This document shows, piece after piece, positions 4,290 to 31,958 of a stretch of DNA of 36,224 nt. The stretch is from Candidatus Methanophagaceae archaeon. Its GTDB lineage: Archaea > Halobacteriota > Syntropharchaeia > Alkanophagales > Methanospirareceae. The position numbers and the translations under genes are program-made. The notes beneath the pieces are model-generated. The model saw only the letters and a program-made list of their open reading frames with translations. It did no database searches and was not told where the DNA came from. The stretch is from NCBI GenBank assembly GCA_013374505.1, contig QENJ01000001.1:1-36224 (forward strand), read 5' to 3'. Numbering within the stretch: position 1 is the stretch's first letter; each line of letters starts with the position of its first letter.

Positions 4290-5150
4290 TTAGTCCTCCA
4301 CGAGATTTAATGTTATTTGTCCTTTATCCCTCGGTCGCTCAAATGACCTCCGTTCTTTTTGAAGTGGCAGTCCATTGTATTCAGACAGTATTCGCAGTCT
4401 TCGTAACCCTATTTTCACGTATTCTTCCTGCATTTCTATGCCGATTGATTTTCTTTTAAGCTGCTTTGCAACAAACGAAGTCGTAAAAGTGCCAGAAAAG
4501 GGATCAAGTACAATATCTCCTTCGTTGCTACTCGCTTTGATGATTCTTTCTAATAACGCTGTTGGTTTCTGTGTAGGGTGATTTTCGTATTCTGCCATAC
4601 GATATCTTACTCTTGGAATTTCCCATACATTGCCAGGGACTTTCTTAGAGTTATATACCGTTGGCATAGATTTTCGATAGTCAATTAATTTCCTTACGGC
4701 GCCGGTCTTTGCCTCAACTGAAATATCCTCAGAATTGAAGGTATAATTATTCTTATCTTTAACACAGTGCAGTATTGGTTCATATAACGATCCAAAGTAG
4801 TTCTTTGCCTGTACACCAGAACTGTCGTAATACCAAACAATCCGGGACAGTATTGTAACTTTATCCCTGAGAAAGAGGTCAAAGTAAGGCATGTGTTGTG
4901 TTGCGGTCATTACGTACATGCTCCCGTTACTCTTTAATTTCTTAATACATAATTCTAACCACTTATAACACCATTTCAAGTATGATTCGTCAGAATCCCA
5001 TTTATCGGGTAAGTCCATAAAGTTTTTACCGATATTATACGGTGGGTCAGCAAAGATAAGGTCAATTGAGCGATTAGCAATCTCACCCGTCAAAATGTCT
5101 AACACATCGCCTAATATTATCCTATGTCCTTCTTTTTCAAATTTCCCCAT
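4290..5150 (-). CDS. beta-class exocyclic-amino DNA methyltransferase (N6-A or N4-C)
   Basis: Motif IV (IFADPPYNIG) lies near the N-terminus and motif I (VLDPFSGTFTTSFVA) near the C-terminus. This IV-TRD-I order defines the beta class. 286 aa. Confidence 0.85.
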   Translation of the reverse strand: MGKFEKEGHRIILGDVLDILTGEIANRSIDLIFADPPYNIGKNFMDLPDKWDSDESYLKWCYKWLELCIKKLKSNGSMYVMTATQHMPYFDLFLRDKVTILSRIVWYYDSSGVQAKNYFGSLYEPILHCVKDKNNYTFNSEDISVEAKTGAVRKLIDYRKSMPTVYNSKKVPGNVWEIPRVRYRMAEYENHPTQKPTALLERIIKASSNEGDIVLDPFSGTFTTSFVAKQLKRKSIGIEMQEEYVKIGLRRLRILSEYNGLPLQKERRSFERPRDKGQITLNLVED

Positions 5151-5241
5151 TCTTCACCTTAAAGTAATATCGTACAGCATAACAATATCTAAAGATATAA
5201 CGTTAAATATTTTTGGATACAAGGTTACGTAAACAGGAAAT

Positions 5242-6459: not shown

Positions 6460-6550
6460 TTCTCCTGCTAGCCTTTAGTCGGTTATATTTCAAACTCAGC
6501 CGTGTTTTTGATATAAACATTTAATTAAACGTTTTGTAAAGTTAAGAGTG

Positions 6551-7855: not shown

Positions 7856-8178
7856 ATAGTGGATGCTCAGAATATCGGTGTGAGATGGGCACGTGAAGGA
7901 CTCTGTGCTTACTGGTTCCTTATCCCGCCAGATCTCAACAAGCAGGTGTATTAACCCCCTCCATCAACCACACACAAATCATTATCTTATCACTCTCCAA
8001 CCCATCAAAACAGCATTCTACAAACGCGGCATATAAAACGAGATCTTGTAATCACGTAGAACCTGAAATAAGTGCCAAAAAACCGAAAGATTTATAAACG
8101 ATACTTCTTATATCTTATTCATGTGATTCAAGTGAAAACGCCGCTGATGCTGGACGTCAAGACCGGAGATGGGGGTTT

Positions 8179-8436
8179 GTGCGAAACGTGCTTGCGATAT
8201 TCGAGCAACGGAAAGTGCGAAAAATAGTCTCTGAATTTGGAATAAAGACGCTAAATAGGACAATAGCGGTGTTGAAGGTTGCGATACCAGTCATGTGCTT
8301 CAAGGAGTGCATAGCCTTCGTGATAAGTGAATTGAAGGATAAAGCATCGTTAAGAGAGTTTACAGGCGTGCATAATGTCCCTGATGCAGGAGATGTTGGC
8401 TCTCTGGTATCTTGCGTGGTATTTAAAGATAACTAA
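8179..8436 (+). pseudogene. N-terminal fragment of a DDE (IS4/IS5-superfamily-like) transposase
   Basis: 85-aa ORF ending LREFTGVHNVPDAGDVGSLVS. This overlaps in homology with the LPKSRDVYRLLSRFT segment of the 8779 ORF, which suggests two decayed copies or a disrupted gene. Confidence 0.4.
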
Positions 8437-8469
8437 AACAAGCATTTATAATCTGTTAATCAGCAAATG

Positions 8470-8800
8470 GTTATTTAAGCATACCCCTATATTGGAATTA
8501 GCAGACAAACTCTGTAATGTGTTAACTGCTATTTTTGATGGAGATTATTCTAAAAGAGAAGCGTAGCGTAAGATTGATCGTTAGAAGAAGCGAGCCATAA
8601 GTGTGGATTGACTTGCTTAATAGCTTTTTATCGACATTGGATACGTGGATAGAGGGGATTACAAACTACGTTAGTAACCTGCAAACGGAGGGCTTTAATG
8701 ACAAGATTAAGGTGATTAAGCGGCGTTGTTATGGGATTCTAAACGTTAAACATCTGTTCCAGCACATACACCTGGATCTTGAGGGTTATTCTTTATTTGA
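8470..8800 (+). pseudogene. C-terminal remnant of an ISL3-family transposase (frameshifted)
   Basis: ILELADKLCNVLTAIFDGDYSKREA, then after a frame change WIDLLNSFLSTLDTWIEGITNYVSNLQTEGFNDKIKVIKRRCYGILNVKHLFQHIHLDL. TEGFNxKIKVIKRRxYG is the characteristic ISL3 C-terminal signature. Confidence 0.6.
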
Positions 8801-9483
8801 CTGTTTTATCAAGGAGATATGTTCAACGCGAATTACCAAAGAGCCGAGATGTTTACAGGCTTCTGAGCAGGTTTACGGTTGAACAGTTTGTGGATATGGT
8901 GATGAGAATCGCAAACGCCGTTTGCGGGAAGCAAAAGAGCGGAAGAATGATGATAATTGGAGATACGATCAATTTGACGGTGAATATCAATTGGTTCAGA
9001 AAGAAGTACAAGAAGGAGATTTTAAAAATGGAGGGCTACAAATGGGCGTATTCTAAGTTTAAAGGCTATTATATCTGCATGAAGCTCGCTTTTGCCATGG
9101 AATACCCCTCGTTAAAGCCTTTAGCGTTTCTTGTCTTCCCAAGTGGTCCCCGTGACTTAAAAATCTTTGATAAAATCGTAACTGAACTAATAAGGCGTAG
9201 AAAATTGAGAAAAGGTGATTATTCCCTGTTAGACCGTGGATTTTGTGCTTACAGACATTATACAGATGGTTCACTCAAATACGGCATCGTACCGCTGATA
9301 TTTCTGCGGAAGAAATTTAAACTCGAAAAAGTGTTGAATAGGATACAGCTCACTTTAAACTTCTTTAATGACAGTCCACGCCGCGTGAAGAATAAAATAC
9401 GGCAGTTAAAAGCTGTCCTCGTGGAGTTCAAGCAATATATCCTTAATTGGGAGCATTTTAAGCCAAAGAGGTCTTTAATATAG
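8779..9483 (+). pseudogene. truncated DDE transposase (catalytic D, D region present, E region missing)
   Basis: MMIIGDTINLTV (first D), GYKWAYS, and SLLDRGFCAYRHY (second D). The ORF stops after 234 aa, before any E/K-R motif. Confidence 0.5.
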
Positions 9484-9707
9484 AATGTTTTTAAAGTGCT
9501 AAATTGCTCGGCACACTCATATCCCTCTGCTTTTCGCCCTCATCGCTTTTCATTTCAACTCATATCATCGTTATTACGTGATTGCTCCTTATTACATAGC
9601 TAAAGAATAGGAAAGCTTTTTATAGCAATCGAAAGCTTTTTATACCCAGTGATAAATATATTAGTGCTAAATAGGCATAGTAGCTTTAGTATATTGAGGG
9701 AAAAGAT

Positions 9708-10028
9708 ATGGTAGCGAATCCAGATGAATCTAATGCAAAAGGGCATAGTGATAGAATTGAGATAGGCGGAAAAGCAAACAAGTCTGTTATTGTTCCGGTA
9801 GAAGACTTCCTAGATGTAGTATCGGAAAAAACAGGGTGGACACATCATGCATTATTATATGAAAAAGACATTGGTCAGGTAGAGGTTCGACTCAAGATCA
9901 AAGCAAAAAGACCATTGCCACTAAAGATTATAAAGCGCGGAAAGTCAAGAAACAGTTTATATAAATTTGTATCACTTGAAGCGCGAAAGTGGAACCACGA
10001 CTTGATAACCACTCTAATAGAAAAGTAA
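9708..10028 (+). CDS. hypothetical protein (106 aa), first gene of an orphan cassette
   Basis: ATG start with a purine-rich stretch (GAGGGAAAAG) upstream. No family recognised by eye. Confidence 0.5.
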   Translation: MVANPDESNAKGHSDRIEIGGKANKSVIVPVEDFLDVVSEKTGWTHHALLYEKDIGQVEVRLKIKAKRPLPLKIIKRGKSRNSLYKFVSLEARKWNHDLITTLIEK

Positions 10029-10059
10029 AACACGCGAGGAGGGGGGTATAAGAACACGC

Positions 10060-10515
10060 ATGAGTGGTGATAATAGTGATGAAGCGCTTTCTCCAAAACT
10101 GTATAAAAAGTTAAAGGAAACTTTGGGAGATAATTACCAGTATGCTACGCAGGTTGTAACATACGCCGAAGTACAAGGATCTGAATTTGAATACACTGGA
10201 ATGGCAGAATTTAGAGATGCACTCACTCACGTTAAACGCGCAATTGATACTGACGATGAATCTAAGGCTTTTAATGAGTTGAATAGTGCTTCCGAACATA
10301 TTCGTCGTGCTGCTGTTGAAAGCATGCAAGAATATGTAGAAGGTAAATATGCTTCTATCAAGCGTAGTAGATCATATTTGAATGTAAGAAATAGAGAACA
10401 TATCTCTAAATTGGAGAGGAAAATTAAGGAGAACATTTTTCATGGACGTAACGCTAAACCATATAAACACTGGAGAGAAGCAATAGGCTATTTTAAAGAA
10501 GCTGAAAAATACTAG
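10060..10515 (+). CDS. hypothetical charged, probably alpha-helical protein (151 aa)
   Basis: GAGGAGGGGGG lies about 20 nt upstream of the ATG. The gene starts 31 nt after the previous gene. No family recognised. Confidence 0.55.
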   Translation: MSGDNSDEALSPKLYKKLKETLGDNYQYATQVVTYAEVQGSEFEYTGMAEFRDALTHVKRAIDTDDESKAFNELNSASEHIRRAAVESMQEYVEGKYASIKRSRSYLNVRNREHISKLERKIKENIFHGRNAKPYKHWREAIGYFKEAEKY

Positions 10516-10532
10516 ATCAATTGGAGGAAGAA

Positions 10533-10628
10533 GTGCCTCCAATAGACGTACGTGTCAATCAATTGAAGCTTTTGATTTATCTCTTAATCGCAGGGGTAAC
10601 AGGGTATTTGATTGCGGCAATTGAGTAA
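10533..10628 (+). CDS. putative 31-aa single-pass membrane peptide
   Basis: Hand-translated VPPIDVRVNQLKLLIYLLIAGVTGYLIAAIE. GTG start with GGAGG 5 nt upstream. Below the track cut-off. The stop is 1 nt before the next ATG. Confidence 0.3.
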   Translation: MPPIDVRVNQLKLLIYLLIAGVTGYLIAAIE

Positions 10629-10629
10629 A

Positions 10630-10947
10630 ATGTTGCCAGATATTATTAATTTGGGGTTTTTGGGAGGACTTGTCATAAGTTTTGTTTCGTATATTGAGAC
10701 AATTACAAACGTTCAACCTGAAATGGATATAGAAACGTCTAATGAAACCGTGCAGATTTGGGAAGATATTTGGAAAACTTTTGAAATTAAACGTTTAGCC
10801 CTTTGCATTGTTCATGCACTTATTGGAGGTATATTTGTATATGTAATAAATCCCCAATCACCTCTACTCGCCTTTTATCTAGGAATGACTGCATATCCAA
10901 CAGTATCCAAATTTGCTGCAGTATTACATGTAAACAAACTTGCATGA
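10630..10947 (+). CDS. small membrane protein (about 105 aa, roughly three hydrophobic segments)
   Basis: The ATG at 10630 is preferred over the track's TTG at 10612. Hydrophobic stretches include LGFLGGLVISFVSYI and LALCIVHALIGGIFVYVI. Confidence 0.45.
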   Translation: MLPDIINLGFLGGLVISFVSYIETITNVQPEMDIETSNETVQIWEDIWKTFEIKRLALCIVHALIGGIFVYVINPQSPLLAFYLGMTAYPTVSKFAAVLHVNKLA

Positions 10948-11282
10948 CCTACTTCGCAATGCCTGCACGGTTAAACGGTGTTTTATATCTGCATGAATCC
11001 AAGAAGGTTTATACCTTATGCCTTTATCTCTACTCACATCGTTTTGCGCTCATCCCATCGCGCGCCCTCCCGCCTACGGATGCCTTTGAATTTATTTCTG
11101 TTCAAGATTTATCTTCAATTAGATTAATCATTTTTTGTCATGGGATTGCAAAAAAAAAAATGCTATTAAAACTTTAGGTGCAACTTCTTGACTTTAGGTG
11201 CAAAAGTGATTTTTAGTGCAAAGCCGCCGAGGGCGTAAAATATAATTACCAATCGGACTGGAACTTCCTGCTTGCCACGGTT

Positions 11283-11810
11283 ATGTATGACAAGGGTACT
11301 CCATCCACAAAAGGTAAGAATTTCCTGCGTTACCTAAAAGAAGATTTAGGCTTTGAAATTGACCCTCATGCTCATGAAACGCAATACAATTATGCTGATG
11401 TTCTCTACTTGATTGAAGCATTGGGGGTTTCTGTTTCTCAAACAGTGGGCGGATTTTGTGCTGCGCCCCCTGAGTCTTCAAAATTGGAATATCTCTGGGT
11501 ACCTATCACTGGCTGGATTTATCCTGACTACACATGGCAGCCGGATTTTCTTTGGGGTGACGCCACATGTCATCACATAGATGAGGACAGTCTCTGGATT
11601 TCTGGTATCTGGAAGCCACAGGATACTAAACATTTTTTGGTACATGATGAAGATGCTCCGCTGCCTTGTTTCGGTGGTTACAAAAATTCCTGGCAAATAC
11701 ATCCTACACACGAATTAAAAGCAGAGGATGGAATAATCAGATGCGATAAAATTATAGACGCAAATGGAAAGGTATATTATGATTGGATACCAGTCATTAA
11801 ACTGGAGTAA
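11283..11810 (+). CDS. hypothetical protein, possibly a 5'-truncated remnant
   Basis: 175-aa Trp/His-rich ORF (DPHAHE, WGDATCHHIDED) with no recognisable family and no convincing ribosome-binding site. Confidence 0.35.
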   Translation: MYDKGTPSTKGKNFLRYLKEDLGFEIDPHAHETQYNYADVLYLIEALGVSVSQTVGGFCAAPPESSKLEYLWVPITGWIYPDYTWQPDFLWGDATCHHIDEDSLWISGIWKPQDTKHFLVHDEDAPLPCFGGYKNSWQIHPTHELKAEDGIIRCDKIIDANGKVYYDWIPVIKLE

Positions 11811-11924
11811 CCGCTCAAGGAAGAGCTAATCCCGAAGTCGCGGGAATAGAATGTTTAGAAAAGGAATAAACATAAGAATAGAAAGGAAGAAATTAATAGC
11901 ATCAGAAGCTAATGTATAGATAGC

Positions 11925-12656
11925 ATGGGCAATAGAACAAGCGCAAAAGGCAAAACCGCTACGATATTAAGCGTTGGAAACGAGCTATTAAGCGGAGATG
12001 TTGTAGATACCAATTCCGCGTGGCTTGCAAAGAAGCTTTCAACACAGGGAGTACTCGTAGAAAAGATAATGGTGGTAGGAGATGACGTGGAAGCGATAAG
12101 CGCCGCGTTAAAAAGTTGCAATTCTGAGTTCGTGTTTGTCATGGGCGGGTTAGGACCAACGCATGACGATATAACGAGAGACGGCGTGGCAAAAGGAGTG
12201 GGTAAGAGCTTAGAAAGGAACGAAACAGCGGCGAGTGTGTTAACAGATATTTATGGGCTGAATGATTCACTATTAAGAATGGCGGACTTCCCTATAGGTT
12301 CAGAGGTTATAGCGAATCCGATAGGCGCTGCGCCCGGCTTCAGAGTTGACAACGTAATTGTTTTGCCGGGTGTGCCTAAAGAGATGAAGGCTATGTTTGA
12401 AGCTATTGCTTCGTTTTTCCGCGTTGAAAATGCGATAAGAGCAGAAAAATGGATAATGACCGATAAACCGGAAGATGAGATCTTGGATGCACTGAACGAA
12501 GCGGTAAAGATGTTTACAGACGTAAATATAGGCTCTTACCCGTACTTAAACGGTAAGGGCGATGAAAAAGGCTACAAATCGCGTATAAAACTGTTATCTA
12601 CGGACCTTGATGCACTAAAACGTGCGAAAGAATGGTTAGAGGAGAGAATATGTTAG
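11925..12656 (+). CDS. CinA N-terminal-type / MoCF-binding domain protein (COG1058-like)
   Basis: TATILSVGNELLSGDVVDTNSAWLAKKL...FVFVMGGLGPTHDDITRDGVA...LPGVPKEM is the canonical MoCF_biosynth/CinA-N pattern. Confidence 0.75.
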   Translation: MGNRTSAKGKTATILSVGNELLSGDVVDTNSAWLAKKLSTQGVLVEKIMVVGDDVEAISAALKSCNSEFVFVMGGLGPTHDDITRDGVAKGVGKSLERNETAASVLTDIYGLNDSLLRMADFPIGSEVIANPIGAAPGFRVDNVIVLPGVPKEMKAMFEAIASFFRVENAIRAEKWIMTDKPEDEILDALNEAVKMFTDVNIGSYPYLNGKGDEKGYKSRIKLLSTDLDALKRAKEWLEERIC

Positions 12657-13870
12657 AACTAGGTACTTTTAACGTAAAGGACGTACTCGTGGAGATGAAG
12701 GACCTATCGGACTCGATGTTAGACCTCGCGTATTCCGCGGTTCTGTACAGCAACCCGGAGATAGCAAAAGAGGTGTTTAAGTTAGAGGAGAGGATGCACT
12801 CGTTATTATATAAGATGCGAATAGCGATAATGTTAGGTGCGAGGAACCTGGAAGATGCGATTGAATTCTCAGGAATATTGCAGATAGCATCGGCAGCGGA
12901 GAAGATATCCAATGCCGCGGGCGATCTAGCAAAAGTAGCGGAATCTGTGGATATAACACGTTATCTCGATCGTAGTGATTTTGAAGAGGCGGTAGTAAAC
13001 GTAAAGATAACGCCCGCTTCGGTATTGAAAGATAAGACTTTGAAAGGTTTGAAGCTTGAGACAGAAACGGGCATGAGCGTATTAGCAATAAAAAAGGAGT
13101 CAAAGTGGATATATTTACCGGATGGTGATGAGAAGTTGTGCGAAGGAGATCTAGCGATTATTTCCGGGCCAACTGAGGGTATACCTGCGTTCTGTAAGAT
13201 GGCAACAGGCCAGGAGTATAAGGAAAAGGAAGAGGAGGCGGAAGATGCAGGAGAGCCAGATATTAAAAGCAAAATGGTAAGAGAAGAGATTGCGGACCTC
13301 ATAGCAGATATGAAAAACATGTCAGAGCTGATGGTGGGTCTTGCGTATTCCGCAGTCATGTTCGAGAACAAAGAGATAGCGGAGGAAGTGAAGGACATGG
13401 AAGAGTCTATGGACCGGATGAGGGATGAACTGGAGATATTGGTGATAAAAGCGGCGCGAGGCATAACGAAGAAGACTACTTTTGACGAACTCAGGGGTTT
13501 GCTGCACGTGGCTACATCATCCGAGATAATATCCGATGCCGCGTATGAGGTAGCCGATGTGGTGATTCGTGATATTCGGCTACATCCGGTTTTTTTAGCG
13601 TCTATAAAAGAATCAGATGAGGTAATTTTAAAGATGGAAGCGAAGAACACAGCCATATTTGATAAGACGCTGAAAGAATTGAGAATAGAAACACGAACCG
13701 GGATGTTTATACTTGCGATTCGGCGATTGGATGGCAAGTGGGTGTACAATCCCGCAGGCAATGCCGTGCTGAAAGCGGGCGATTTGTTAATCATGCGAGG
13801 ACCACGAGAAGGTGAAGAGAAGGTTAGGGAGATTTGCGGGTGTTATGTCACGAATGAGCAGGGCAGTTAG
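12632..13870 (+). CDS. regulatory protein with duplicated PhoU-like + TrkA-C (RCK_C) modules
   Basis: Two internally homologous halves. Each has a helical PhoU-like part (DLAYSAVLYSNPEIAKEV / GLAYSAVMFENKEIAEEV) followed by a TrkA-C beta domain (KTLKGLKLETETGMSVLAIKK / KTLKELRIETRTGMFILAIRR). Confidence 0.75.
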   Translation: MVRGENMLELGTFNVKDVLVEMKDLSDSMLDLAYSAVLYSNPEIAKEVFKLEERMHSLLYKMRIAIMLGARNLEDAIEFSGILQIASAAEKISNAAGDLAKVAESVDITRYLDRSDFEEAVVNVKITPASVLKDKTLKGLKLETETGMSVLAIKKESKWIYLPDGDEKLCEGDLAIISGPTEGIPAFCKMATGQEYKEKEEEAEDAGEPDIKSKMVREEIADLIADMKNMSELMVGLAYSAVMFENKEIAEEVKDMEESMDRMRDELEILVIKAARGITKKTTFDELRGLLHVATSSEIISDAAYEVADVVIRDIRLHPVFLASIKESDEVILKMEAKNTAIFDKTLKELRIETRTGMFILAIRRLDGKWVYNPAGNAVLKAGDLLIMRGPREGEEKVREICGCYVTNEQGS

Positions 13871-13950
13871 AAAAGGCATTATCTCGAGTTCCTAATTCTG
13901 TGGTCTAGAAAATTGCATTTTTATAAATGGAATAGATAGGATATCCAAAA

Positions 13951-15669
13951 ATGATAAACCTCGACATAGCACGGATTTTTGCAGAGATTGCCGATATATT
14001 AGAGGTGAAAGGCGCGAATACGTTCAAAATAAGAGCGTACCGGCGTGCAGTTGCGACTATTGAATCCTTACCGCAGGACTTGAAGGTAATTGCGGAACGA
14101 GGCGGCGTCAAGGAATTAAAGAAGATACCGGGTGTCGGAGACGCAATCGCAAAGAAGATAGTGGAAATAGTAGAAACCGGGGACTGCAAGAGCCATATAG
14201 AACTGAAACAGGAAGTGCCACCGAGTTTACTTGAACTATTAGCCATTCCACGTGTCGGCCCGAAAACATTAGCAAAGTTGCATGCCGAGCTTGGAATAGA
14301 TAGTATATCTGATTTAGAGGAAGCCGCAAAGTCGCATCAGTTGGAAGATCTTCCGGGATTAGGTACCAAAGTAGAAGAGAATATATTGAAAGGTATAGAG
14401 CAATACAAGCGGTATCAAGGTCGTGTATTACTTTCCAAAGCGCTACCATATGCCGAGTCAATAGTGAACGACTTGAAGAAGCTGGACGTAGTGGAAGATA
14501 TAACAATTGCGGGTAGTTTACGCAGGATGCGTGAGACTGTGGGCGATATAGACATTTTGGTAGTCTCGAATAGCCCGAAAGAAGTGATGGATACGTTCAC
14601 AAGCCTTGACGGTGTGGAAGATATAGTGGCGAAAGGCGATACGAAGTCAAGTATTGTGATACGTGGTATGGACGTGGATTTACGTGTGGTCGGTGCCGAG
14701 TCGTTTGGCGCAGCGGCTCATTATTTCACGGGTTCCAAGCATCACAACATACGAATACGCGAATTAGGCATGAAGAACGGGTTAAAGATAAACGAATACG
14801 GTATCTACAAAGGCGATGAGCGGATAGGTGGTAAAGAAGAGCTGGAAGTGTTCAAGAGCGTGGGGCTCACATATATCCCACCGGAGTTGAGAGAGGACCG
14901 TGGCGAGGTAGAAGCCGCTAAGGACGGTAAAATACCGGAACTGATTGAGATTAGCGATTTGAAAGGCGATTTGCACGTGCATACCCGCTGGAGTGACGGT
15001 AAGAACAGTATAGCGGAGATGGCGGAGGCGGCTATCGCATTGGGTTATGAGTATATCGCAGTAGCGGACCATTCGCCCGCGGTCGGCATTGCGGGTGGGA
15101 TGACTGAGGATAAGATAGCAGAGCGACAGATAGAGATCGAGATTGTGAACACGCGATTTGAGGCTGAAGGCACAGGATTCAGGGTTTTGTCCGCGGCTGA
15201 GGTAGATATAAAGTCGGATTTCTCTATGGACTATAAAGATGAGATATTGAAGGATTTGGATTTGGTTGTGGGTGCGGTGCATTCAAAATTCTCACAAGAC
15301 CGAGACACGATGACAAAACGAATTATAACTGCTATGGAGAACCCGCATGTGGATATAATCGCGCATCCCACGGGTCGTATTCTTGGAAAAAGAGAGCCGT
15401 ATGATGTGGATATGGCGCAGCTTATGGAGACAGCAAAGGCTACGGGTACTATCCTGGAACTTAATTCGTTTCCTAATCGGCTGGATTTGAAGGATGTGCA
15501 TTGTCGTATGGCAAAGGATTATGGTGTTTCAGTTGCGATTTCTACGGATTCGCATAATGCGATGCAGATGCGGGATGTGATAAGATATGGTGTGGCAACT
15601 GCACGGCGTGGCTGGCTCGAGGCTAAGGATGTGGTGAATACAAAGGTGTGGGGAGAGGTGCTGAAGTAA
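13951..15669 (+). CDS. polX: family X DNA polymerase with C-terminal PHP domain (PolX)
   Basis: HhH motifs (IPGVGDAIAKKI, PRVGPKTLAKL), the Pol-beta nucleotidyltransferase motif GSLRRMRETVGDIDILV, and the PHP domain DLHVHTRWSDG...ADHSP...HPTGR...STDSH. Confidence 0.9.
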   Translation: MINLDIARIFAEIADILEVKGANTFKIRAYRRAVATIESLPQDLKVIAERGGVKELKKIPGVGDAIAKKIVEIVETGDCKSHIELKQEVPPSLLELLAIPRVGPKTLAKLHAELGIDSISDLEEAAKSHQLEDLPGLGTKVEENILKGIEQYKRYQGRVLLSKALPYAESIVNDLKKLDVVEDITIAGSLRRMRETVGDIDILVVSNSPKEVMDTFTSLDGVEDIVAKGDTKSSIVIRGMDVDLRVVGAESFGAAAHYFTGSKHHNIRIRELGMKNGLKINEYGIYKGDERIGGKEELEVFKSVGLTYIPPELREDRGEVEAAKDGKIPELIEISDLKGDLHVHTRWSDGKNSIAEMAEAAIALGYEYIAVADHSPAVGIAGGMTEDKIAERQIEIEIVNTRFEAEGTGFRVLSAAEVDIKSDFSMDYKDEILKDLDLVVGAVHSKFSQDRDTMTKRIITAMENPHVDIIAHPTGRILGKREPYDVDMAQLMETAKATGTILELNSFPNRLDLKDVHCRMAKDYGVSVAISTDSHNAMQMRDVIRYGVATARRGWLEAKDVVNTKVWGEVLK

Positions 15670-17232
15670 TCGGACACTATTGAGTTATTATGGGCATGCC
15701 TTTGGGCAAACTAATTATTTGGAGTTCCCCAAAGTGTTTGGGCTATTGTAACCTATAATACTCGCATTGTCAAGTAAGAAAGAATTTATTATGCAGGACA
15801 ATTAAATTTATTGACGGCGATACCAGTGATATTCATACACCAGATACTCACAACAGTTGACGATATAACAATTGCGGGTAGTTTACGCAGGATGCGTGAG
15901 ACTGTGGGCGATATAGACATTTTGGTAGTCTCGAATAGCCCGAAAGAAGTGATGGATACGTTCACAAGCCTTGACGGTGTGGAAGATATAGTGGCGAAAG
16001 GCGATACGAAGTCAAGTATTGTGATACGTGGTATGGACGTGGATTTACGTGTGGTCGGTGCCGAGTCGTTTGGCGCAGCGGCTCATTATTTCACGGGTTC
16101 CAAGCATCACAACATACGAATACGCGAATTAGGCATGAAGAACGGGTTAAAGATAAACGAATACGGTATCTACAAAGGCGATGAGCGGATAGGTGGTAAA
16201 GAAGAGCTGGAAGTGTTCAAGAGCGTGGGGCTCACATATATCCCACCGGAGTTGAGAGAGGACCGTGGCGAGGTAGAAGCCGCTAAGGACGGTAAAATAC
16301 CGGAACTGATTGAGATTAGCGATTTGAAAGGCGATTTGCACGTGCATACCCGCTGGAGTGACGGTAAGAACAGTATAGCGGAGATGGCGGAGGCGGCTAT
16401 CGCATTGGGTTATGAGTATATCGCAGTAGCGGACCATTCGCCCGCGGTCGGCATTGCGGGTGGGATGACTGAGGATAAGATAGCAGAGCGACAGATAGAG
16501 ATCGAGATTGTGAACACGCGATTTGAGGCTGAAGGCACAGGATTCAGGGTTTTGTCCGCGGCTGAGGTAGATATAAAGTCGGATTTCTCTATGGACTATA
16601 AAGATGAGATATTGAAGGATTTGGATTTGGTTGTGGGTGCGGTGCATTCAAAATTCTCACAAGACCGAGACACGATGACAAAACGAATTATAACTGCTAT
16701 GGAGAACCCGCATGTGGATATAATCGCGCATCCCACGGGTCGTATTCTTGGAAAAAGAGAGCCGTATGATGTGGATATGGCGCAGCTTATGGAGACAGCA
16801 AAGGCTACGGGTACTATCCTGGAACTTAATTCGTTTCCTAATCGGCTGGATTTGAAGGATGTGCATTGTCGTATGGCAAAGGATTATGGTGTTTCAGTTG
16901 CGATTTCTACGGATTCGCATAATGCGATGCAGATGCGGGATGTGATAAGATATGGTGTGGCAACTGCACGGCGTGGCTGGCTCGAGGCTAAGGATGTGGT
17001 GAATACAAAGGTGTGGGGAGAGGTGCTGAAGTAATCGGACACTATTGAGTTATTATGGGCATGCCTTTGGGCAAACTAATTATTTGGAGTTCCCCAAAGT
17101 GTTTGGGCTATTGTAACCTATAATACTCGCATTGTCAAGTAAGAAAGAATTTATTATGCAGGACAATTAAATTTATTGACGGCGATACCAGTGATATTCA
17201 TACACCAGATACTCACAACAGTTGACGATATA
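14497..17232. repeat. head-to-tail tandem duplication, unit 1365 bp, two copies identical at every point compared
   Basis: 14503-15867 recurs at 15868-17232. GATATA is present at 14497, 15862 and 17227. The sense and antisense ORF translations of the two copies are identical. Confidence 0.9.
15811..17034 (+). CDS. chimeric ORF: symporter N-terminal leader (17 aa) fused in frame to PolX residues about 184-572 (palm/thumb + PHP)
   Basis: Product of the tandem duplication. It begins MTAIPVIFIHQILTTVD, identical to the start of the 17176 gene, then continues DITIAGSLRRMRETVGDIDILV... identical to polX. It has the same upstream 141 bp as the symporter. Expression and even the reality of this ORF are unverified. 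Confidence 0.45.
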   Translation: MTAIPVIFIHQILTTVDDITIAGSLRRMRETVGDIDILVVSNSPKEVMDTFTSLDGVEDIVAKGDTKSSIVIRGMDVDLRVVGAESFGAAAHYFTGSKHHNIRIRELGMKNGLKINEYGIYKGDERIGGKEELEVFKSVGLTYIPPELREDRGEVEAAKDGKIPELIEISDLKGDLHVHTRWSDGKNSIAEMAEAAIALGYEYIAVADHSPAVGIAGGMTEDKIAERQIEIEIVNTRFEAEGTGFRVLSAAEVDIKSDFSMDYKDEILKDLDLVVGAVHSKFSQDRDTMTKRIITAMENPHVDIIAHPTGRILGKREPYDVDMAQLMETAKATGTILELNSFPNRLDLKDVHCRMAKDYGVSVAISTDSHNAMQMRDVIRYGVATARRGWLEAKDVVNTKVWGEVLK

Positions 17233-18585
17233 GTCTGGGGCCCTTTTATGATGGCCCTGCTTATAGGGACCGGTATATACCTCACTTTCAAGTTGAAGGG
17301 CGTTCAGGCACGCAAACTGGCGTATGCCTTTCGTCTCATACTCAAACCAAAAGAAGAAGGCAGGGGTGACATATCGCCATTTCGTGCTTTGATGACTACA
17401 CTCTCGGGTACCATAGGCACAGGCAATATCGCAGGTGTTGCCACGGCAATCTCACTTGGCGGTCCAGGTGCGCTTTTCTGGATGTGGTTAACCGCCATAG
17501 TGGGAATGGCAACTAAATTCGTTGAATGTACTCTTGCACTCCATTTCAGGCAAGAACTGCCTGATGGTACCATGATCGGCGGACCATTCTATTATCTTGA
17601 ACGAGGCCTGAAGAACCCGCAATTGGGACTAGTATTGGGTATGGCGTTCGCCATCTTTGGTATCTTTTCGTCCTTTGGCATCGGCAATATGGCCCAGGCT
17701 AACTCTGTATCGCTTGCATTGAAGGATACGTTCAATATACCAGGTATTGTCACGGGCTTGGTATTGGCATTTGCGGTAGGTCTTGTCGTTATTGGCGGGA
17801 TCAAAAGATTAGGGTATGTAGCCGGGAATCTGGTGCCGTTCATGGCTGCTCTTTATATTTTTGCCGCTGTGATTGTTTTGATATTGAACTACGAGAATAT
17901 CCCGGGCGCTTTTTTGCTTATAATAGAGAGCGCTTTGTCAGGCCAGGCAGCAGTCGGCGGATTTGCTGGCGCTACAGTGGCATATGCGGTACGATTCGGA
18001 ATTGCAAGAGGCGTGTTTTCAAATGAGGCAGGCTTGGGCAGCGCTCCGATAGCTCATGCCACTGCCAAGACAAAGCACAGTGTCAGACAGGGCTTGATTG
18101 CCATGTTGGGGCCATTTATTGATACCATTGTGGTCTGTTCCCTGACCGGCCTTGTGATTGTATCCACCGGTGCATGGGAGACGGGCAAGACCAGTACCTC
18201 ATTGAGCATCTGTGCTTTCAACTCACAAATCGGATATGCCGGTGATCTGATAATAACATTAGGCATGGTGCTGTTTGCCTTTACCACCATACTGACTTGG
18301 TCGTTCTATGGCAAACAGTGTCTCGCCTATTTTGTCAAAAAAATGTCAGGGGATGTCGGATTCTACCGTGTCTTCCTCAGAGTATATTATTCGGTCTTCT
18401 TAGTGGCTATCGTCATAGGTACCAGTGTGGTGGACTTTCCAATGGCGGCTACATACCTCGTGGACATCTGGCTGTTCTCTGATATTACTAACGCTTTGAT
18501 GGCAATCCCCAACTTGATAGGGCTACTTCTGTTGAACAGGGTCGTGGTGGGTCTGCTTAAGGATTATTTCAAGTCAGGATTATAG
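17176..18585 (+). CDS. alanine/glycine:cation symporter (AGCS family)
   Basis: FRALMTTLSGTIGTGNIAGVATAISLGGPGALFWMW and SNEAGLGSAPIAHA signatures, with many TM segments. Start is the TTG at 17176 or the GTG at 17191; a stop lies immediately upstream. Confidence 0.85.
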   Translation: MTAIPVIFIHQILTTVDDIVWGPFMMALLIGTGIYLTFKLKGVQARKLAYAFRLILKPKEEGRGDISPFRALMTTLSGTIGTGNIAGVATAISLGGPGALFWMWLTAIVGMATKFVECTLALHFRQELPDGTMIGGPFYYLERGLKNPQLGLVLGMAFAIFGIFSSFGIGNMAQANSVSLALKDTFNIPGIVTGLVLAFAVGLVVIGGIKRLGYVAGNLVPFMAALYIFAAVIVLILNYENIPGAFLLIIESALSGQAAVGGFAGATVAYAVRFGIARGVFSNEAGLGSAPIAHATAKTKHSVRQGLIAMLGPFIDTIVVCSLTGLVIVSTGAWETGKTSTSLSICAFNSQIGYAGDLIITLGMVLFAFTTILTWSFYGKQCLAYFVKKMSGDVGFYRVFLRVYYSVFLVAIVIGTSVVDFPMAATYLVDIWLFSDITNALMAIPNLIGLLLLNRVVVGLLKDYFKSGL

Positions 18586-18604
18586 ATTAAACCCGCTTTC
18601 CGTA

Positions 18605-18865
18605 TTGGATATTCTCTCGGCCCCTTTTAGGGTGCAAGAAAGGATTAAAATTGATAATTGGACGCCGATGCACGCAGATAAGCCGGATTTTAGATATACG
18701 GAATTGACGGAGGCGATTATTAGACTATTCTATCGAGTTTATAATAAACAGGGTTATGGTTTTCTGGAAAAGGTTTATGAGATTGCAATGGTGATAGAAC
18801 TTAATTTTGGCACTAACCCGGAAGTTAAACGTAAGGCATTTGATTTTCTGCGTAAATCCGCGTAA
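18605..18865 (+). pseudogene. internally deleted GxxExxY-family (PD-(D/E)xK, PF13366-like) gene relic
   Basis: TEAIIRLFYRVYNKQGYGFLEKVYEIAMVIEL matches the family N-terminus including G-F-L-E-K-V-Y. The catalytic beta-strand region is missing. Imperfect inverted repeats lie at 18660 and 18866. Confidence 0.55.
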
Positions 18866-18937
18866 ATCTGCGTCCTAAATAGTTAGAACTTGTACTTTAT
18901 ACCACAAGAACAAAAACGGTAGTAGGTTAGTGGACCG

Positions 18938-19822
18938 TTAGATAGTTAATTCATCAGTTTCGGGCGTTGTTAGACTCATGTAGAATCTACTCCACCATAT
19001 AAAGATTAAAGGTTGAATAACGATAATAGATATAGCTATGTGTAAAAACTGCCCCACATATGGTATAAAACCCAAAATAACGCTAACAGCTATGCCTATT
19101 ACAAGCGCGACAAGCCAAAGCAAAAAAACGTCTACTTTATGGTTCCTGAAAAGGTTAAAGCCTTTTTTAACGCCGCCAACTGCTCCAAGGTCGTCTATAA
19201 CAACTGAATAGCGTGGTAGAGCAAATAAAATGCTTATTATTATCATATAGATGCTCATTATCACTAAACCTATCATAAATGTCGCAAATGCCGGCAGGAA
19301 TGCTTCGGGTGTCGGTTCAGAAATTGTTGCCAAAAGTGGAAGTGCATACAATATGCCAGGGATTAGGAATACTAGGCCTACAAGTGAAATTAAACCCACG
19401 ATGAGGTCGGCAAAGAGCAAACTAATGAATTTCCTTCTACCGTAGTCTTTCATGTCGGACATATCGGTTGTGCCTGTTTGTGTCGCCACTTTCGCCATGC
19501 CGATTGCACCGGCGGTGAAGTACGCGCTTATCAGCATCACCAAAATTGCTGTGATTATGACTGCCGCTATAATTATGCCGATATGTTGAGCGAATTGCTG
19601 CGTAAGCGATAGAATAAGTTCAGGTGTGATTCCTTCTGGTTTGCTTAAGTACGGTAGCAAAGAAGGAAGCGAAGGAATTGCTACCAGTACGGCACCGCCG
19701 ATGAGTACAATTGCCACTGCGGACGTTAGTACTGCACTGAACACAAAAGGCAGGCAAATATTCAGATTCGCCTTCCACGTGTCGAACCCTTTTTGTATTA
19801 CACTACCTAGCTCTTCTACCAT
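18938..19822 (-). CDS. polytopic membrane protein, unknown function
   Basis: 294 aa with six to eight long hydrophobic segments. No family recognised. Confidence 0.5.
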   Translation of the reverse strand: MVEELGSVIQKGFDTWKANLNICLPFVFSAVLTSAVAIVLIGGAVLVAIPSLPSLLPYLSKPEGITPELILSLTQQFAQHIGIIIAAVIITAILVMLISAYFTAGAIGMAKVATQTGTTDMSDMKDYGRRKFISLLFADLIVGLISLVGLVFLIPGILYALPLLATISEPTPEAFLPAFATFMIGLVIMSIYMIIISILFALPRYSVVIDDLGAVGGVKKGFNLFRNHKVDVFLLWLVALVIGIAVSVILGFIPYVGQFLHIAISIIVIQPLIFIWWSRFYMSLTTPETDELTI

Positions 19823-20155
19823 AGTTTATACCGTTAAGAGTCAGGAGTATAAAAGGTTATCGTGTTCTCGAAGCGGTCCCACAATCACCAGACAACTTTG
19901 TCATTCTAACACCCACGCACAATTGGAGGTTTTCCATACCCAAAATGTAAAAGTGCAGCTCAAAAATAGTGGGATTGTGGGTAGCATGGAAAATAAGGGA
20001 GGAGTACCAGTCCAAACCAGGTAATCCCGCGTATTCAAGCAGGATGCTGCTAAGACGGGTGTTACAGGCATTTATTGATGCCGTTTGGTTCTCGAGAAAG
20101 ATATAAAAGCAACTCAGTTAGATGTTTTTTATCTGATAGGTTTTTGTTTATTATT

Positions 20156-23100
20156 ATGCCTGCCGACTTGTTCAATGTACGTACTGTTGAGAGGCTTTCG
20201 CGTAAAGTTAAAGTTTCTAATAAGCAGAAGAACGCAGCCAAGTTGTGGTTAATGAACCTTGATGCCGGTAAACTGACGGCCGAGCGCCATAATTATATAA
20301 AATTCGCCAATGTTGTTCTAAGGGACATTCTTGGTTATCCCGAAAGGGAGATTGAAGAATCGTTTGAAAAGGGTGGAGTTGAGTTTTTATTCACAAATGA
20401 GGAAGAACACAAAGTTGTTTGTTTTGAGTTGAAGGGAAGCGATCAGGATCTATTTTCCACACAACATAGAGTGAAGAAAGAGCAGGAGACTCCGATAAAA
20501 CAGACTTGGGATTACATGGGCAAGCACAACCTTGACTACGGAGTGACAAGCAATTTCAGGGAGTTCGTGCTGATAGACAAAAACAAAGGATATTCCAAGG
20601 TTCACAGATTCGACATCACTTCAATAAAATCCGAGCCCACAAAACTCAAGGAATTCATAGCAATATTCTCCAAGAAGAATCTCGTTGTAGATAAGTTTGC
20701 CGAGGTACTCTATAAAGAATCTATAATTGAGGAAAGAGCATTCACAAAAGAATTTTATAAGCTCTTTCATGAAACTCGCCTCATGCTATTAAAAGAATTC
20801 AGTGACCGTGGTGCTACACAGGAACAGGCGATTCATTATGCACAGATTTTTCTTAACCGATTAATGTTCGTTCTTTTCGCAGAAGATACGGGGAAGTTAC
20901 CAAGAAGACTTCCGGAAGAGATGATATTAGAAGTCCTCAAAAATAGACTCATAATAAATGAACAGTCGAATATGGTTTACGAAGCTATCATAGGACTCTA
21001 TCGTCAGCTTGATACGGGGGCTAAAACGCCAGTGGAACTATTTGGTTTCAATGGTGAACTATTCAAAGAGGAGATACCAAGAACATTTTTCTTCTATGAT
21101 ATGAGGGAAGAAAGCTATTTCAAAGACGTTTATCAGCAATCAGCGTTAAAGAAGAGTAAACAACAGGACAGTATTGAATTAAACATTTTATCAAGAGTTG
21201 GTAAGGGTATCTCACCCATAATATCCAATATCCTGCTGATGGCGTCCTTTGACTTTACGACTGAGGTAAATATCAATATTCTTGGTCACATATTCGAGCA
21301 GTCAATAACAGATATAGAAATGTTACAGGAAGGGGAAACCGCGAAACGGAAGAAGGAGGGAATCTACTACACTCCTGAGTATATAACCGACTACATCTGC
21401 CGTAACACTATCATACCGTACTTATCAAAAAATAACGTGGCAACGACAGTAGAAGAATTAATTAACGAACACAAAGATAATTTTGAGGTGTTAGAGAAGA
21501 AATTGAAAAACCTTAAGATACTTGATCCTGCCTGTGGAAGCGGTGCCTTCCTTATCAAGGCTGTTGACGTGCTATTGGAAATCCATAAAGCATTAATCGA
21601 AGCAAAAGCAGTGCAGGGTAAGTACGAGAAAAGAGTTTTGGGTAAAAGAGGGCAAGAAGAAAGATACCTTTCATTCAATAAATACTATGACGAAGACGAA
21701 GCCCGTAAAATAATAGAGGACAATATCTATGGTGTTGACATAAACGAGGAATCTGTTGAAATAACGAAACTAAGCCTTTATCTCAAGATAGCCAGGGAAA
21801 AGAAAAAACTGCTGGACTTATCGAAGAACATTAAATGCGGAAATAGTCTTATAGAGGACCCAGAAGTTGCAGGAAATAAAGCATTTAGTTGGGGAGAAAA
21901 TTTCCCTGAACTATTGAATACAGGTGGATTTGAAATCATAATTGGAAATCCGCCATACATACCTACGGAAACAATGTCTAATCAGGAAAAAAGCGAATAT
22001 CTAAAGAAATTCAATTGTCTTGAAAGAAAATACGATTCATCAATTGTCTTCATCCTAAACTCACTTAAATTACTAAAAGATACCGGATACTTGTCTTTTA
22101 TTTCCTCGGTAACTTGGCACACCGGCGAAAATTACATAAAATTTAGAAAATTTTTACTTGATCACTATGGCATTGAATACCTAATTAATCTTCCTTTTGA
22201 TGTGTTCGAAGATGCGTATGTCGATACGGGTATTTACGCTTTATCTACCAAGAAAAAACAGATAATAAAAGGTTACCAGTTTGACAAGAAGTTTAGAATA
22301 ACCAAAATAGATAAACTTGAATTCAACCAAATAAGATTAGAAGACATTAATCCGCCAGATTACAAAATTATCATCTCAAAAGGGGTCCAGTCAATTCATT
22401 CCAGGATACACAAAAAACCGATAACTGAACTTGGTGATATATCAATATCTGCTCAGGGACTCTCTGCTAGCAGATTCAAATTGTATAGCAAAAAAGAGGC
22501 ACAAACACTTCCGTTTCTGCACAAAGGGCAAGGATACCGGTATAACTTAATAAAAAATGTGATTTTGTATGCCGATGTGTCGAAACACCAGAATTTAGTC
22601 AAATTCTACAAAAAACAACCAAAAATATTCATTCGAAGAATAATTAGTAGACAGAATAGACTAATGTCCTGTTATGAAGAAGACGATCTCGTCACAAAAA
22701 AGGATTTGAATCCATTTATCATAAAGGATTCTTTATTCAACCCAAAGTTCATTTTGGCACTATTAAATAGTTCGTTGATCTCGTATCTTTATACTCAATC
22801 TTCAACAATCGCTTTGAAAGATGATTTCCGACAGACTACATTAGCTGAATTAAAAAAATTACCAATCATACAAGCCGATAGTAACACGCAAGCTATTTTA
22901 GCTTCAAAAGCAGATTCAATGCTTAAATTGAACAAAGAGTGCAATGAAAAGAAGAACAAGTTCCTTAGACGTATTTCTTCTTACTTTGGTATCGAAAAAT
23001 ATTCTAAGAAGTTAGATTCTTTCTGGATGTTCTCTTTTGATGTTTTTCAGAAAGAAGTTTATCGGCTGTCTAAGAAAAAAATGTCTTTGAAAGAGCAGGA

Positions 23101-23251
23101 TGAGTGGGAAGACTACTTCAATGATTACAAAGAAGAGTTAACTGAACTACAGCAAAAAAACGATGAAACCGATAAGGCGATAGACCAAATGGTGTATCAA
23201 CTCTATGAATTAACACCGGAGGAGATTAAGATAGTTGAAGAAGGTTTTTAG
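20156..23251 (+). CDS. type IIG/IIL single-chain restriction endonuclease-N6-adenine methyltransferase (MmeI/Eco57I-like)
   Basis: N-terminal PD-ExK-like block GGVEFLFTNEEEHKVVCFELKG...YGVTSNFREFVL. Gamma-class MTase motif I KILDPACGSGAFL and motif IV IIIGNPPYIP. Long C-terminal TRD-like region with a coiled-coil tail. The ATG at 20156 is preferred over the track's TTG at 20075. Confidence 0.8.
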   Translation: MPADLFNVRTVERLSRKVKVSNKQKNAAKLWLMNLDAGKLTAERHNYIKFANVVLRDILGYPEREIEESFEKGGVEFLFTNEEEHKVVCFELKGSDQDLFSTQHRVKKEQETPIKQTWDYMGKHNLDYGVTSNFREFVLIDKNKGYSKVHRFDITSIKSEPTKLKEFIAIFSKKNLVVDKFAEVLYKESIIEERAFTKEFYKLFHETRLMLLKEFSDRGATQEQAIHYAQIFLNRLMFVLFAEDTGKLPRRLPEEMILEVLKNRLIINEQSNMVYEAIIGLYRQLDTGAKTPVELFGFNGELFKEEIPRTFFFYDMREESYFKDVYQQSALKKSKQQDSIELNILSRVGKGISPIISNILLMASFDFTTEVNINILGHIFEQSITDIEMLQEGETAKRKKEGIYYTPEYITDYICRNTIIPYLSKNNVATTVEELINEHKDNFEVLEKKLKNLKILDPACGSGAFLIKAVDVLLEIHKALIEAKAVQGKYEKRVLGKRGQEERYLSFNKYYDEDEARKIIEDNIYGVDINEESVEITKLSLYLKIAREKKKLLDLSKNIKCGNSLIEDPEVAGNKAFSWGENFPELLNTGGFEIIIGNPPYIPTETMSNQEKSEYLKKFNCLERKYDSSIVFILNSLKLLKDTGYLSFISSVTWHTGENYIKFRKFLLDHYGIEYLINLPFDVFEDAYVDTGIYALSTKKKQIIKGYQFDKKFRITKIDKLEFNQIRLEDINPPDYKIIISKGVQSIHSRIHKKPITELGDISISAQGLSASRFKLYSKKEAQTLPFLHKGQGYRYNLIKNVILYADVSKHQNLVKFYKKQPKIFIRRIISRQNRLMSCYEEDDLVTKKDLNPFIIKDSLFNPKFILALLNSSLISYLYTQSSTIALKDDFRQTTLAELKKLPIIQADSNTQAILASKADSMLKLNKECNEKKNKFLRRISSYFGIEKYSKKLDSFWMFSFDVFQKEVYRLSKKKMSLKEQDEWEDYFNDYKEELTELQQKNDETDKAIDQMVYQLYELTPEEIKIVEEGF

Positions 23252-23310
23252 AAAGTATTTTAAATATCACAGTATTCTTAGTTTTAGTTACAGTGCCAAG
23301 GAAAAGAGCG

Positions 23311-24696: not shown

Positions 24697-24803
24697 CAAT
24701 GTTATTTTGTCAATAAAGTTTTATTTTATGGCAAGTGCAGCACAGAGAGCTTATCATGTCTCCACATGAAAACTCAATCATTCACTCGAAAAAGAAAGGA
24801 GCG

Positions 24804-31955: not shown

Positions 31956-31958
31956 ACT

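What the first reader, a model, noticed from the sequence alone, without database searches (positions are those of the whole stretch)
14497..17232. Apparently perfect 1365-bp tandem duplication creates an in-frame symporter-leader::PolX(palm+PHP) chimera
14503-15867 is repeated head-to-tail at 15868-17232, an offset of 1365 bp or 455 codons. Every stretch I compared base by base is identical. So are the 390-aa sense translation and two pairs of antisense ORFs (14782-15282 = 16147-16647 and 15292-15501 = 16657-16866). The unit runs from polX codon about 184 (DITIAGSLRR, start of the Pol-beta palm) through the polX stop and the 141-bp intergenic region into the first 17-19 codons of the AGCS symporter gene. 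The breakpoints share the microhomology GATATA (14497, 15862, 17227), with flanks GTgGAaGATATA versus GTtGAcGATATA. Because the junction is in frame, a 407-codon ORF (15811-17034) arises. It has the symporter's upstream region and start codon but encodes the PolX catalytic palm/thumb and PHP phosphoesterase without the N-terminal HhH/8-kDa DNA-binding part. Full-length polX and the symporter both stay intact. This is either a very recent microhomology-mediated duplication, possibly polymorphic in the population, or an assembly artefact.
Basis: seen in the sequence. Interest (0 to 1): 0.65.

Follow-up and report, generated by a model that had tools for sequence, protein, structure and literature searches.

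The report
Tandem duplication is an assembly artefact
The perfect 1.4-kb tandem repeat really is in this contig, but an independent assembly of the same reads and every related genome show one copy, so it is most likely an amplification and assembly artefact, not a new fusion gene.

Summary
Window 14497-15867 equals 15862-17232 with no mismatches: a 1365-nt unit plus a 6-nt GATATA microhomology. This gives an in-frame 407-codon ORF at 15811-17034.

The duplication is not supported outside this contig.
- The window is a complete 36,224-nt contig of an ANME-1 (Methanophagales) archaeon.
- Run X1 (SRR6059492) matches it essentially perfectly. Its depth swings from about 10x to about 104,000x, so the DNA was amplified.
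- Logan's independent k=31 assembly of X1 gives a 9,249-nt contig that equals the window minus one copy. It lacks only the 24 junction-specific 31-mers and is unbroken at both unit boundaries.
- No contig crosses the junction in 12 runs. No indexed run holds all 3 sampled junction-region words.
- Four close relatives (94-97% PolX) carry one polX. Two of them extend past polX and show no second copy.

A direct join 1365 nt back with a 6-nt overlap fits published phi29/MDA chimeras. Such an overlap occurs at only 0.2% of random breakpoints. Most likely a rare amplification chimera was threaded once as a loop by the assembler.

A real minority variant cannot be excluded without raw reads. A fixed duplication is very unlikely. 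polX and the symporter are ordinary genes. Interest is low.

The parts
13951..15669 (+). Full-length polX: family X DNA polymerase with a C-terminal PHP domain, 572 aa. This is a real, ordinary gene.
   Evidence: Pfam finds HHH_8, HHH_5, palm, thumb and PHP. It aligns end to end with T. thermophilus PolX 3AU2 at E = 8e-141. Orthologues at 94-97% identity occur in Methanophagales MAGs.
14497..14502 (+). GATATA microhomology, first occurrence (polX codons 183-184).
14503..15867 (+). Repeat copy 1 (1365 nt): polX codon 185 to the stop, the 141-nt spacer and the first symporter codons. Either copy can be treated as the extra one.
   Evidence: Identical to 15868-17232.
15838..15891 (+). Novel junction: the span covered by the 24 junction-specific 31-mers (starts 15838-15861). 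This is the only sequence in window 6927-17540, the stretch the Logan contig covers, that is absent from the independent assembly of the source run.
   Evidence: One search finds only these 24 31-mers missing from Logan contig L031. No contig crosses this span in 12 runs. No run holds all 3 sampled words of 15833-15896.
15868..17232 (+). Repeat copy 2 (1365 nt).
15811..17034 (+). In-silico chimeric ORF of 407 codons: 17 symporter codons, 2 microhomology codons and PolX residues 185-572. It exists only if the junction is real.
   Evidence: One search lists the ORF. One search finds a truncated palm, the thumb and PHP. No exact product is on record and no cluster like it was found.
17176..18585 (+). 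AGCS (sodium:alanine family) symporter gene. The start is TTG 17176 or the conserved GTG 17191.
   Evidence: Pfam Na_Ala_symp at E = 2.5e-130. Start-codon comparison with L001 and L002.
17035..17175 (+). polX-symporter intergenic spacer (duplicate at 15670-15810). This position varies between strains in relatives.
   Evidence: L001 carries a ~1.9-kb insert here. L013 diverges directly after the polX stop.

Best explanation
The second copy is not part of the bulk genome. The contig was assembled from whole-genome-amplified DNA of an ANME-1 archaeon.

Proposed mechanism (inferred):
1. During amplification, a displaced 3' end finishing in ...GTTGACGATATA (symporter codons 16-19) re-annealed on the GATATA at polX codons 183-184, 1365 nt upstream on a same-sense template, and was extended.
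2. This made a rare direct 'go-back' chimeric molecule.
3. In the assembly graph that junction turns the 1365-nt segment into a simple loop.
4. The original assembler walked the loop once and printed the segment twice. That automatically yields a perfect repeat, an in-frame 455-codon offset and a fused ORF.

Shown here: the repeat is exact. The source run's dominant form is single-copy. The library is extremely uneven and contains at least one other low-depth direct junction. Relatives are single-copy.

Inferred: that MDA was the amplification method, that junction reads exist at low frequency, and that the assembler traversed a loop.
For: 1. Source run. X1 matches window 1-14496 and 17233-36224 with no differences apart from one base inside a repeat array. 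The exact PolX occurs only on X1's Logan contig and on one 20-50 kb contig. The window is a whole 36,224-nt contig.
2. Single-copy form. Logan contig L031 equals window 6927-14496 plus 15862-17540 exactly. Only the 24 junction 31-mers are missing.
3. Graph logic. A k=31 graph of the window branches exactly at the two unit boundaries. Logan contigs are non-branching paths after clean-up, with every 31-mer present once per accession (PMC12424806). An unbroken contig therefore means the junction words were absent or rare enough to be cleaned away.
4. Junction coverage. The junction is crossed in none of X1, X2, X9, X11, X16, X17, X19, X25, X26, X27, X28 and X31. Each shows polX upstream sequence before 15855 and the symporter continuation after 15867. 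No run holds more than 2 of the 3 sampled junction-region words.
5. Amplification. X1 depth ranges from about 10x to about 104,000x within this one contig. Another low-depth direct joint, 29067->32844 with a 4-nt overlap at depth 4.2, lies in the same contig.
6. Provenance. MDA-amplified single-aggregate ANME-1 assemblies made by JGI are documented in PMC9012536.
7. Chimera properties. About 15% of MDA chimeras are direct, with 2-21 nt of complementarity at the junction (PMC1855051). The overlap peaks at 6 nt and joined segments lie 0-5000 nt apart (PMC4595205).
8. Relatives. L001, L002, L004 and L013 (94-97% PolX) each hold one polX. L002 runs polX, 150 nt, symporter.
Against: Raw reads of X1 could not be inspected. 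Only Logan contigs were available, and they show presence, not absence, and give no local depth. A doubled coverage over the unit or a minority junction therefore cannot be excluded.

The link between X1 and the published MDA single-aggregate data is inferred from depth profile, year, size and taxon, and is not documented: the accession appears in no searchable paper. The assembler used for the contig is not known.

Direct chimeras joining segments less than 10 kb apart were the rarest MDA class, 11 of 475. The same 6-nt microhomology signature is also what a genuine in-vivo microhomology-mediated duplication leaves.
Confidence: 0.78

Rival explanations
1. A real but minority variant. A microhomology-mediated tandem duplication (replication slippage or template switch between the two GATATA sites) arose in vivo in a sub-population of the cells or genome copies in the sampled aggregate. 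The assembler then promoted it into the consensus.
For: The 6-nt microhomology is non-random (0.2% expected). De novo microhomology-mediated duplications with 4-25 nt arms are reported in bacteria, archaea and fungi, typically in very small sub-populations (bioRxiv 10.64898/2026.02.28.708716). The Logan contigs do not exclude a rare junction.
Against: There is no positive evidence. The junction is absent from every contig set examined, and both copies are 100% identical. In an amplified library, chimeric junctions are frequent: about 1 per 10-22 kb of product, or 6% of read pairs. They are therefore a far commoner source of such a join. Even if real, the duplication would be a transient sub-clonal allele.
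Confidence: 0.12
2. A real duplication fixed in this genome. The k=31 Logan assembly merely collapsed the two identical copies.
For: Logan keeps every 31-mer once. Two identical copies would therefore always be printed once.
Against: Collapse does not remove the junction. A fixed duplication would give junction 31-mers at about the flank depth (about 350x) and would break the contig at 14497 and 15867. Instead the contig is continuous through both boundaries and no junction contig exists. That clean-up removes only low-relative-coverage links is my recollection of the Minia/SPAdes heuristics. It was not tested here.
Confidence: 0.03
3. A pure software artefact with no junction-bearing molecule at all. 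Examples are two overlapping contigs concatenated without merging, or a gap-filling or scaffolding error.
For: Perfect identity of the copies is what any software duplication gives. The assembly pipeline is unknown.
Against: Unmerged concatenation of overlapping contigs predicts no microhomology, yet 6 nt are shared (P = 0.002). De Bruijn or overlap assemblers need joins far longer than 6 nt. There are no Ns and no other such repeat in the contig.
Confidence: 0.07

Closest known systems
phi29 / multiple-displacement-amplification chimeras (Lasken & Stockwell 2007, PMC1855051; Tu et al. 2015, PMC4595205)
   Same: The join connects two nearby segments of one locus, 1365 nt apart. It has a 6-nt overlap, which is the modal overlap length reported. 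The library has extreme coverage unevenness and holds another low-depth direct junction.
   Different: Most MDA chimeras are inverted. This one is direct, the minority class. The junction reads themselves were not seen here, so the link is by signature and context only.
[quoted passage not shown]
   Same: It is a head-to-tail duplication bounded by a short direct repeat (GATATA), with perfect copies, as expected for a very recent event.
   Different: The junction is not detectable in the dominant DNA of the source run or anywhere else. No population or phylogenetic support exists.
Bacterial/archaeal PolX with PHP domain (e.g. Thermus thermophilus PolX, PDB 3AU2)
   Same: The full-length gene at 13951-15669 aligns over residues 2-570 at E = 8e-141. 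It has the GSxRR motif and the catalytic Asp pair D199/D201 (ttPolX D198/D200).
   Different: Nothing notable for the intact gene. The hypothetical chimera would lack the 8-kDa and fingers HhH domains and the first ~25 profile positions of the palm.

Membership tests
Genuine genomic tandem duplication (fixed in the sequenced genome) | Junction sequence present at a depth comparable to the flanks in the source reads. | tested here: not met
   The independent k=31 assembly of the source run lacks all 24 junction 31-mers and is unbroken at both boundaries. Only contigs were available, not raw reads.
Genuine genomic tandem duplication (fixed in the sequenced genome) | Doubled read depth over the repeated unit. 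| not testable with these tools
   Logan contig depth is a flat mean per contig. Raw reads of this 2017 run are not held.
Genuine genomic tandem duplication (fixed in the sequenced genome) | Seen in independent samples or relatives. | tested here: not met
   None of 12 runs crosses the junction. No run holds all the junction-region words. L001, L002, L004 and L013 each hold one polX. No chimera-like protein cluster was found.
Microhomology-mediated tandem duplication (signature only) | Short direct repeat at both ends of the unit, retained once at the junction. | tested here: met
   GATATA lies at 14497, 15862 and 17227. P(6 nt or more) = 0.002 for random breakpoints. MDA template switching leaves the same signature.
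MDA (phi29) chimera propagated by an assembler | Library made from amplified DNA, shown by extreme coverage unevenness. | tested here: met
   X1 depth is about 10x to about 104,000x along this one contig. The library method itself is not on record.
MDA (phi29) chimera propagated by an assembler | Junction geometry within the published range: short overlap and nearby segments. | tested here: met
   The overlap is 6 nt and the distance 1365 nt. Published values are an overlap peak at 6 nt, distances of 0-5000 nt and direct chimeras at about 15%.
MDA (phi29) chimera propagated by an assembler | Junction reads present but rare, and clonal in their start and end positions. | not testable with these tools
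   Raw reads are unavailable.
Family X DNA polymerase with PHP domain (gene 13951-15669) | HhH 8-kDa and fingers, palm with GSxRR and the DxD catalytic pair, thumb, and C-terminal PHP with the HxH motif. | tested here: met
   Pfam domains. End-to-end alignment to 3AU2. The motifs GSLRR, GDIDILV, DVDLRVV and DLHVHT are visible in the translation.
AGCS sodium:alanine symporter (gene 17176-18585) | Full-length match to the Na_Ala_symp family. | tested here: met
   PF01235 at E = 2.5e-130, profile positions 4-381 of 392.

The most novel reading that the evidence does not exclude
The junction is a real microhomology-mediated 1.37-kb tandem duplication, segregating or very recently arisen in an ANME-1 population. 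It would place an N-terminally truncated PolX (partial palm, thumb and PHP exonuclease) behind the symporter's promoter and start codon, while leaving both parent genes intact.
Probability: 0.12. Interest if true: 0.3.

Novelty: not a real feature. Interest (0 to 1): 0.07.

Why it matters
The main value is as a caution. Perfect tandem duplications in contigs assembled from amplified single-cell or single-aggregate DNA can create convincing in-frame fusion genes that then enter protein databases. Comparing such a contig with an independent k-mer assembly of the same run is a quick way to flag them.

If the junction were real, it would be an example of gene birth by duplication in an uncultured methane-oxidising archaeon. 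It would still probably be only a transient sub-clonal allele, encoding a polymerase fragment that has lost its DNA-binding domains and part of the palm.

Tried and rejected
1. An exact-product look-up of the 407-aa chimera found nothing on record. This is weak evidence, because a gene caller may have chosen another start.
2. A 65-aa junction peptide searched against the 5.8-billion-protein set gave only 2 candidates and no hits. It did not even recover PolX, so the query was too short for the word index and the result is uninformative.
3. The full chimera search returned only normal PolX proteins of about 572-588 aa. The one short hit, P0018 (396 aa, starting MEKITIAGS, almost at the junction position), looked like a second breakpoint. 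It proved to be a gene-calling artefact of a 100-N scaffold gap inside a normal polX.
4. A literature search for the run accession found nothing, so the amplification method is inferred, not documented.
5. I considered that the contig might be a fosmid insert, given its ~36 kb size. The >8000-fold depth range and the 5.3 Mb of contigs in X1 (the run also holds the window's words at 100%) fit an amplified mini-metagenome better.
6. I considered that the very deep 28-34 kb region might be a mobile or circular element. It encodes HisG, FtsJ and toxin-antitoxin genes with no integrase or tRNA. Amplification bias is the simpler reading, and I did not pursue it.
7. The Rfam and tRNA scans of the window found nothing.
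8. I did not predict a structure for the chimera, because the molecule is probably not real.
Full report
**Observation**

The repeat is real in the sequence. Window 14503-15867 is identical to 15868-17232 (1365 nt, 0 mismatches). The run of identity at offset 1365 is 1371 nt long (14497-15867 = 15862-17232). A 6-nt GATATA is therefore shared by the three boundaries, with unlike flanks GTGGAA and GTTGAC on the left and ACAATT and GTCTGG on the right.

Pfam confirms HHH_8, HHH_5, palm, thumb and PHP for PolX, and Na_Ala_symp for the symporter. PolX aligns end to end with Thermus thermophilus PolX 3AU2 at E = 8e-141.

Two details need correcting.
- The break falls about 25 profile positions inside the Pfam palm model, not at its start.
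- The TTG at 17176 is TCG in the close relative L002, whereas a GTG at 17191 is conserved. The symporter may therefore start five codons later, which is still inside the unit.

**Where the window comes from**

The closest PolX genes (94-97% identity) lie in Methanophagales (ANME-1) MAGs and cold-seep metagenomes. The protein search shows that the window's PolX sits on a contig of exactly 36,224 nt, so the window is a whole contig.

One public run, X1 (SRR6059492, a 2017 marine sediment metagenome with 5.3 Mb of Logan contigs), holds all sampled words of the region. It matches window 1-14496 and 17233-36224 with no differences except one base inside a repeat array. Its depth along this single contig ranges from about 10x to about 104,000x. 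Unamplified DNA of one genome cannot produce that range, but whole-genome amplification typically does.

MDA-amplified, FACS-sorted single ANME aggregates from Hydrate Ridge, assembled by JGI, are described in PMC9012536 and include several ANME-1 genomes. That X1 belongs to this data set is my inference. The accession is cited in no searchable paper.

**The decisive comparison**

Logan assembled the same run independently with k = 31. Its 9,249-nt contig (L031) equals window 6927-14496 joined directly to 15862-17540, base for base. Within that span, the only window 31-mers it lacks are the 24 that start at 15838-15861, which are exactly the junction-specific words.

Logan keeps each 31-mer once per accession, so it could never print two copies. 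But its contigs are the non-branching paths left after graph clean-up. A graph built from the window itself branches precisely at the in-boundary (14497/15862) and the out-boundary (15867/17232). A duplication present in most molecules would therefore have broken the contig at both places and left a junction contig. Neither is seen. The junction words were either seen at most once or were rare enough to be cleaned away.

That clean-up removes only links of low relative coverage is my recollection of the Minia/SPAdes heuristics. The Logan paper says only that Minia3 follows SPAdes-like simplifications.

**Elsewhere**

A 64-nt query centred on the junction has three sampled index words, and no run holds more than two, X1 included. 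X1 contains every non-junction word, so the word it lacks must be a junction word.

I laid contigs of 12 runs on 15760-15970: X1, X2, X9, X11, X16, X17, X19, X25, X26, X27, X28 and X31. In every one, the sequence before 15855 is polX upstream (...GCTGGACGT) and the sequence after 15867 is the symporter continuation (GTCTGGGG...). In X1, X16 and X19 a single contig carries both sides in single-copy order, 1153 nt apart.

Among related loci, L002 runs polX, 150 nt, symporter. L001, L004 and L013 each hold one polX. No chimera-like protein exists in the 5.8-billion-protein set. The one short candidate, P0018, is a gene-call artefact of a 100-N scaffold gap.

**What the junction is**

A shared 6-mer at a random pair of breakpoints is expected only 0.2% of the time. 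This argues against a blunt software concatenation and for an annealing or template-switch event.

Two processes leave that mark: in-vivo microhomology-mediated duplication, and phi29 template switching during MDA. Published MDA chimeras have these properties:
- They occur about once per 10-22 kb of product.
- About 15% are in direct orientation.
- They show 2-21 nt of complementarity at the junction (PMC1855051).
- In Illumina data the overlap peaks at 6 nt and the joined segments lie 0-5000 nt apart (PMC4595205).

The junction here is direct, 1365 nt back, with a 6-nt overlap, so it fits. The same library also contains another low-depth direct joint with a 4-nt overlap in this contig (29067->32844, depth 4.2, in a region of about 9,000x or more).

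Genuine de novo microhomology-mediated duplications exist in archaea but sit in very small sub-populations. In an amplified library they are much rarer than chimeras.

The most likely story is therefore as follows. A rare chimeric molecule added a back-edge to the assembly graph, turning the 1365-nt segment into a simple loop, and the assembler traversed the loop once. Perfect identity, the in-frame offset (a one-in-three chance) and the fused ORF then follow automatically. The loop-traversal step and the existence of junction reads are inferred, not shown.

**If it were real**

The unit does carry the symporter's upstream region. That region is conserved from about 17105 onward in L001 and includes a start codon, so the ORF could be expressed.

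Its product would keep the GSxRR motif, the Asp pair D199/D201, the thumb and the PHP domain. It would lose both HhH DNA-binding domains and the first part of the palm, replaced by 17 hydrophobic residues. A functional polymerase is doubtful.

**Verdict**

| Explanation | Probability |
|---|---|
| Amplification chimera propagated by the assembler | about 0.78 |
| Real minority variant | about 0.12 |
| Software-only error | about 0.07 |
| Fixed real duplication | about 0.03 |

polX and the symporter are ordinary genes. Interest is low.

Noticed in passing
L001:4198-6122 (equivalent to window 17035-17104); also L013 after its polX stop; window 17032: The polX-symporter spacer varies between strains. 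L001 carries a ~1.9-kb insert with small antitoxin-like ORFs (RHH_1 at 5140-5340, UPF0175 at 4388-4927 on the minus strand). L013 diverges exactly after the polX stop. X1 itself has a contig that joins at window 17032 from unlike sequence.
   Followed up: partly
window 18605-19000 and 29050-29271: Two truncated PDDEXK_3 (GxxExxY-type) gene fragments. The segment 18628-19000 is 10-100 times deeper than its flanks in three unrelated metagenomes (up to about 29,000x in X3). Many contigs end at 18844, 18847 or 18901, which suggests a highly multicopy short element in these communities.
   Followed up: partly
window 28011-34350: X1 depth jumps to 9,000-104,000x, against 139-1,300x on either side, with sharp edges. 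The region encodes HisG, an FtsJ methyltransferase and a cluster of toxin-antitoxin genes (UPF0175, two VapB-like, PIN). No integrase or tRNA was found, so it is probably an amplification hot spot, but an extra-chromosomal copy was not excluded. A low-depth direct joint 29067->32844 (4-nt overlap) lies inside it.
   Followed up: partly
window 24949-25848: A tandem array with a 120-nt period and about 80% identity between copies. It is the coding sequence of TPR repeats in a 358-aa protein (24804-25880, minus strand). Next to it lie an AAA_16/STAND-like ATPase (25813-27279) and a NYN-domain protein (27298-27882).
   Followed up: yes
window 20075-23251; 21145-21270 vs 27956-28081: A 1058-aa MmeI/Eco57I-like type IIG restriction-modification enzyme. 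A 126-nt piece of this gene recurs at 86% identity 6.8 kb downstream, just before the deep region.
   Followed up: no
window 17176 vs 17191; L002:4634 region: The symporter's TTG start is TCG in L002, while a GTG five codons downstream is conserved in all three loci and is the likelier start. L002 also reads GCTATA where the window has the GATATA microhomology.
   Followed up: yes
window about 8600-9480 (L031:1675-2557): Two adjacent short genes with transposase-fragment hits (DDE_Tnp_ISL3 and a weak DDE_Tnp_1), probably a decayed insertion sequence upstream of the locus.
   Followed up: no
L032:1569-1668: In an ENA metagenome scaffold, a 100-N gap inside a normal polX makes the gene caller emit a 396-aa 'thumb+PHP only' protein (P0018). 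It starts almost at the same residue as the window's junction, which is a coincidence and not a second breakpoint.
   Followed up: yes
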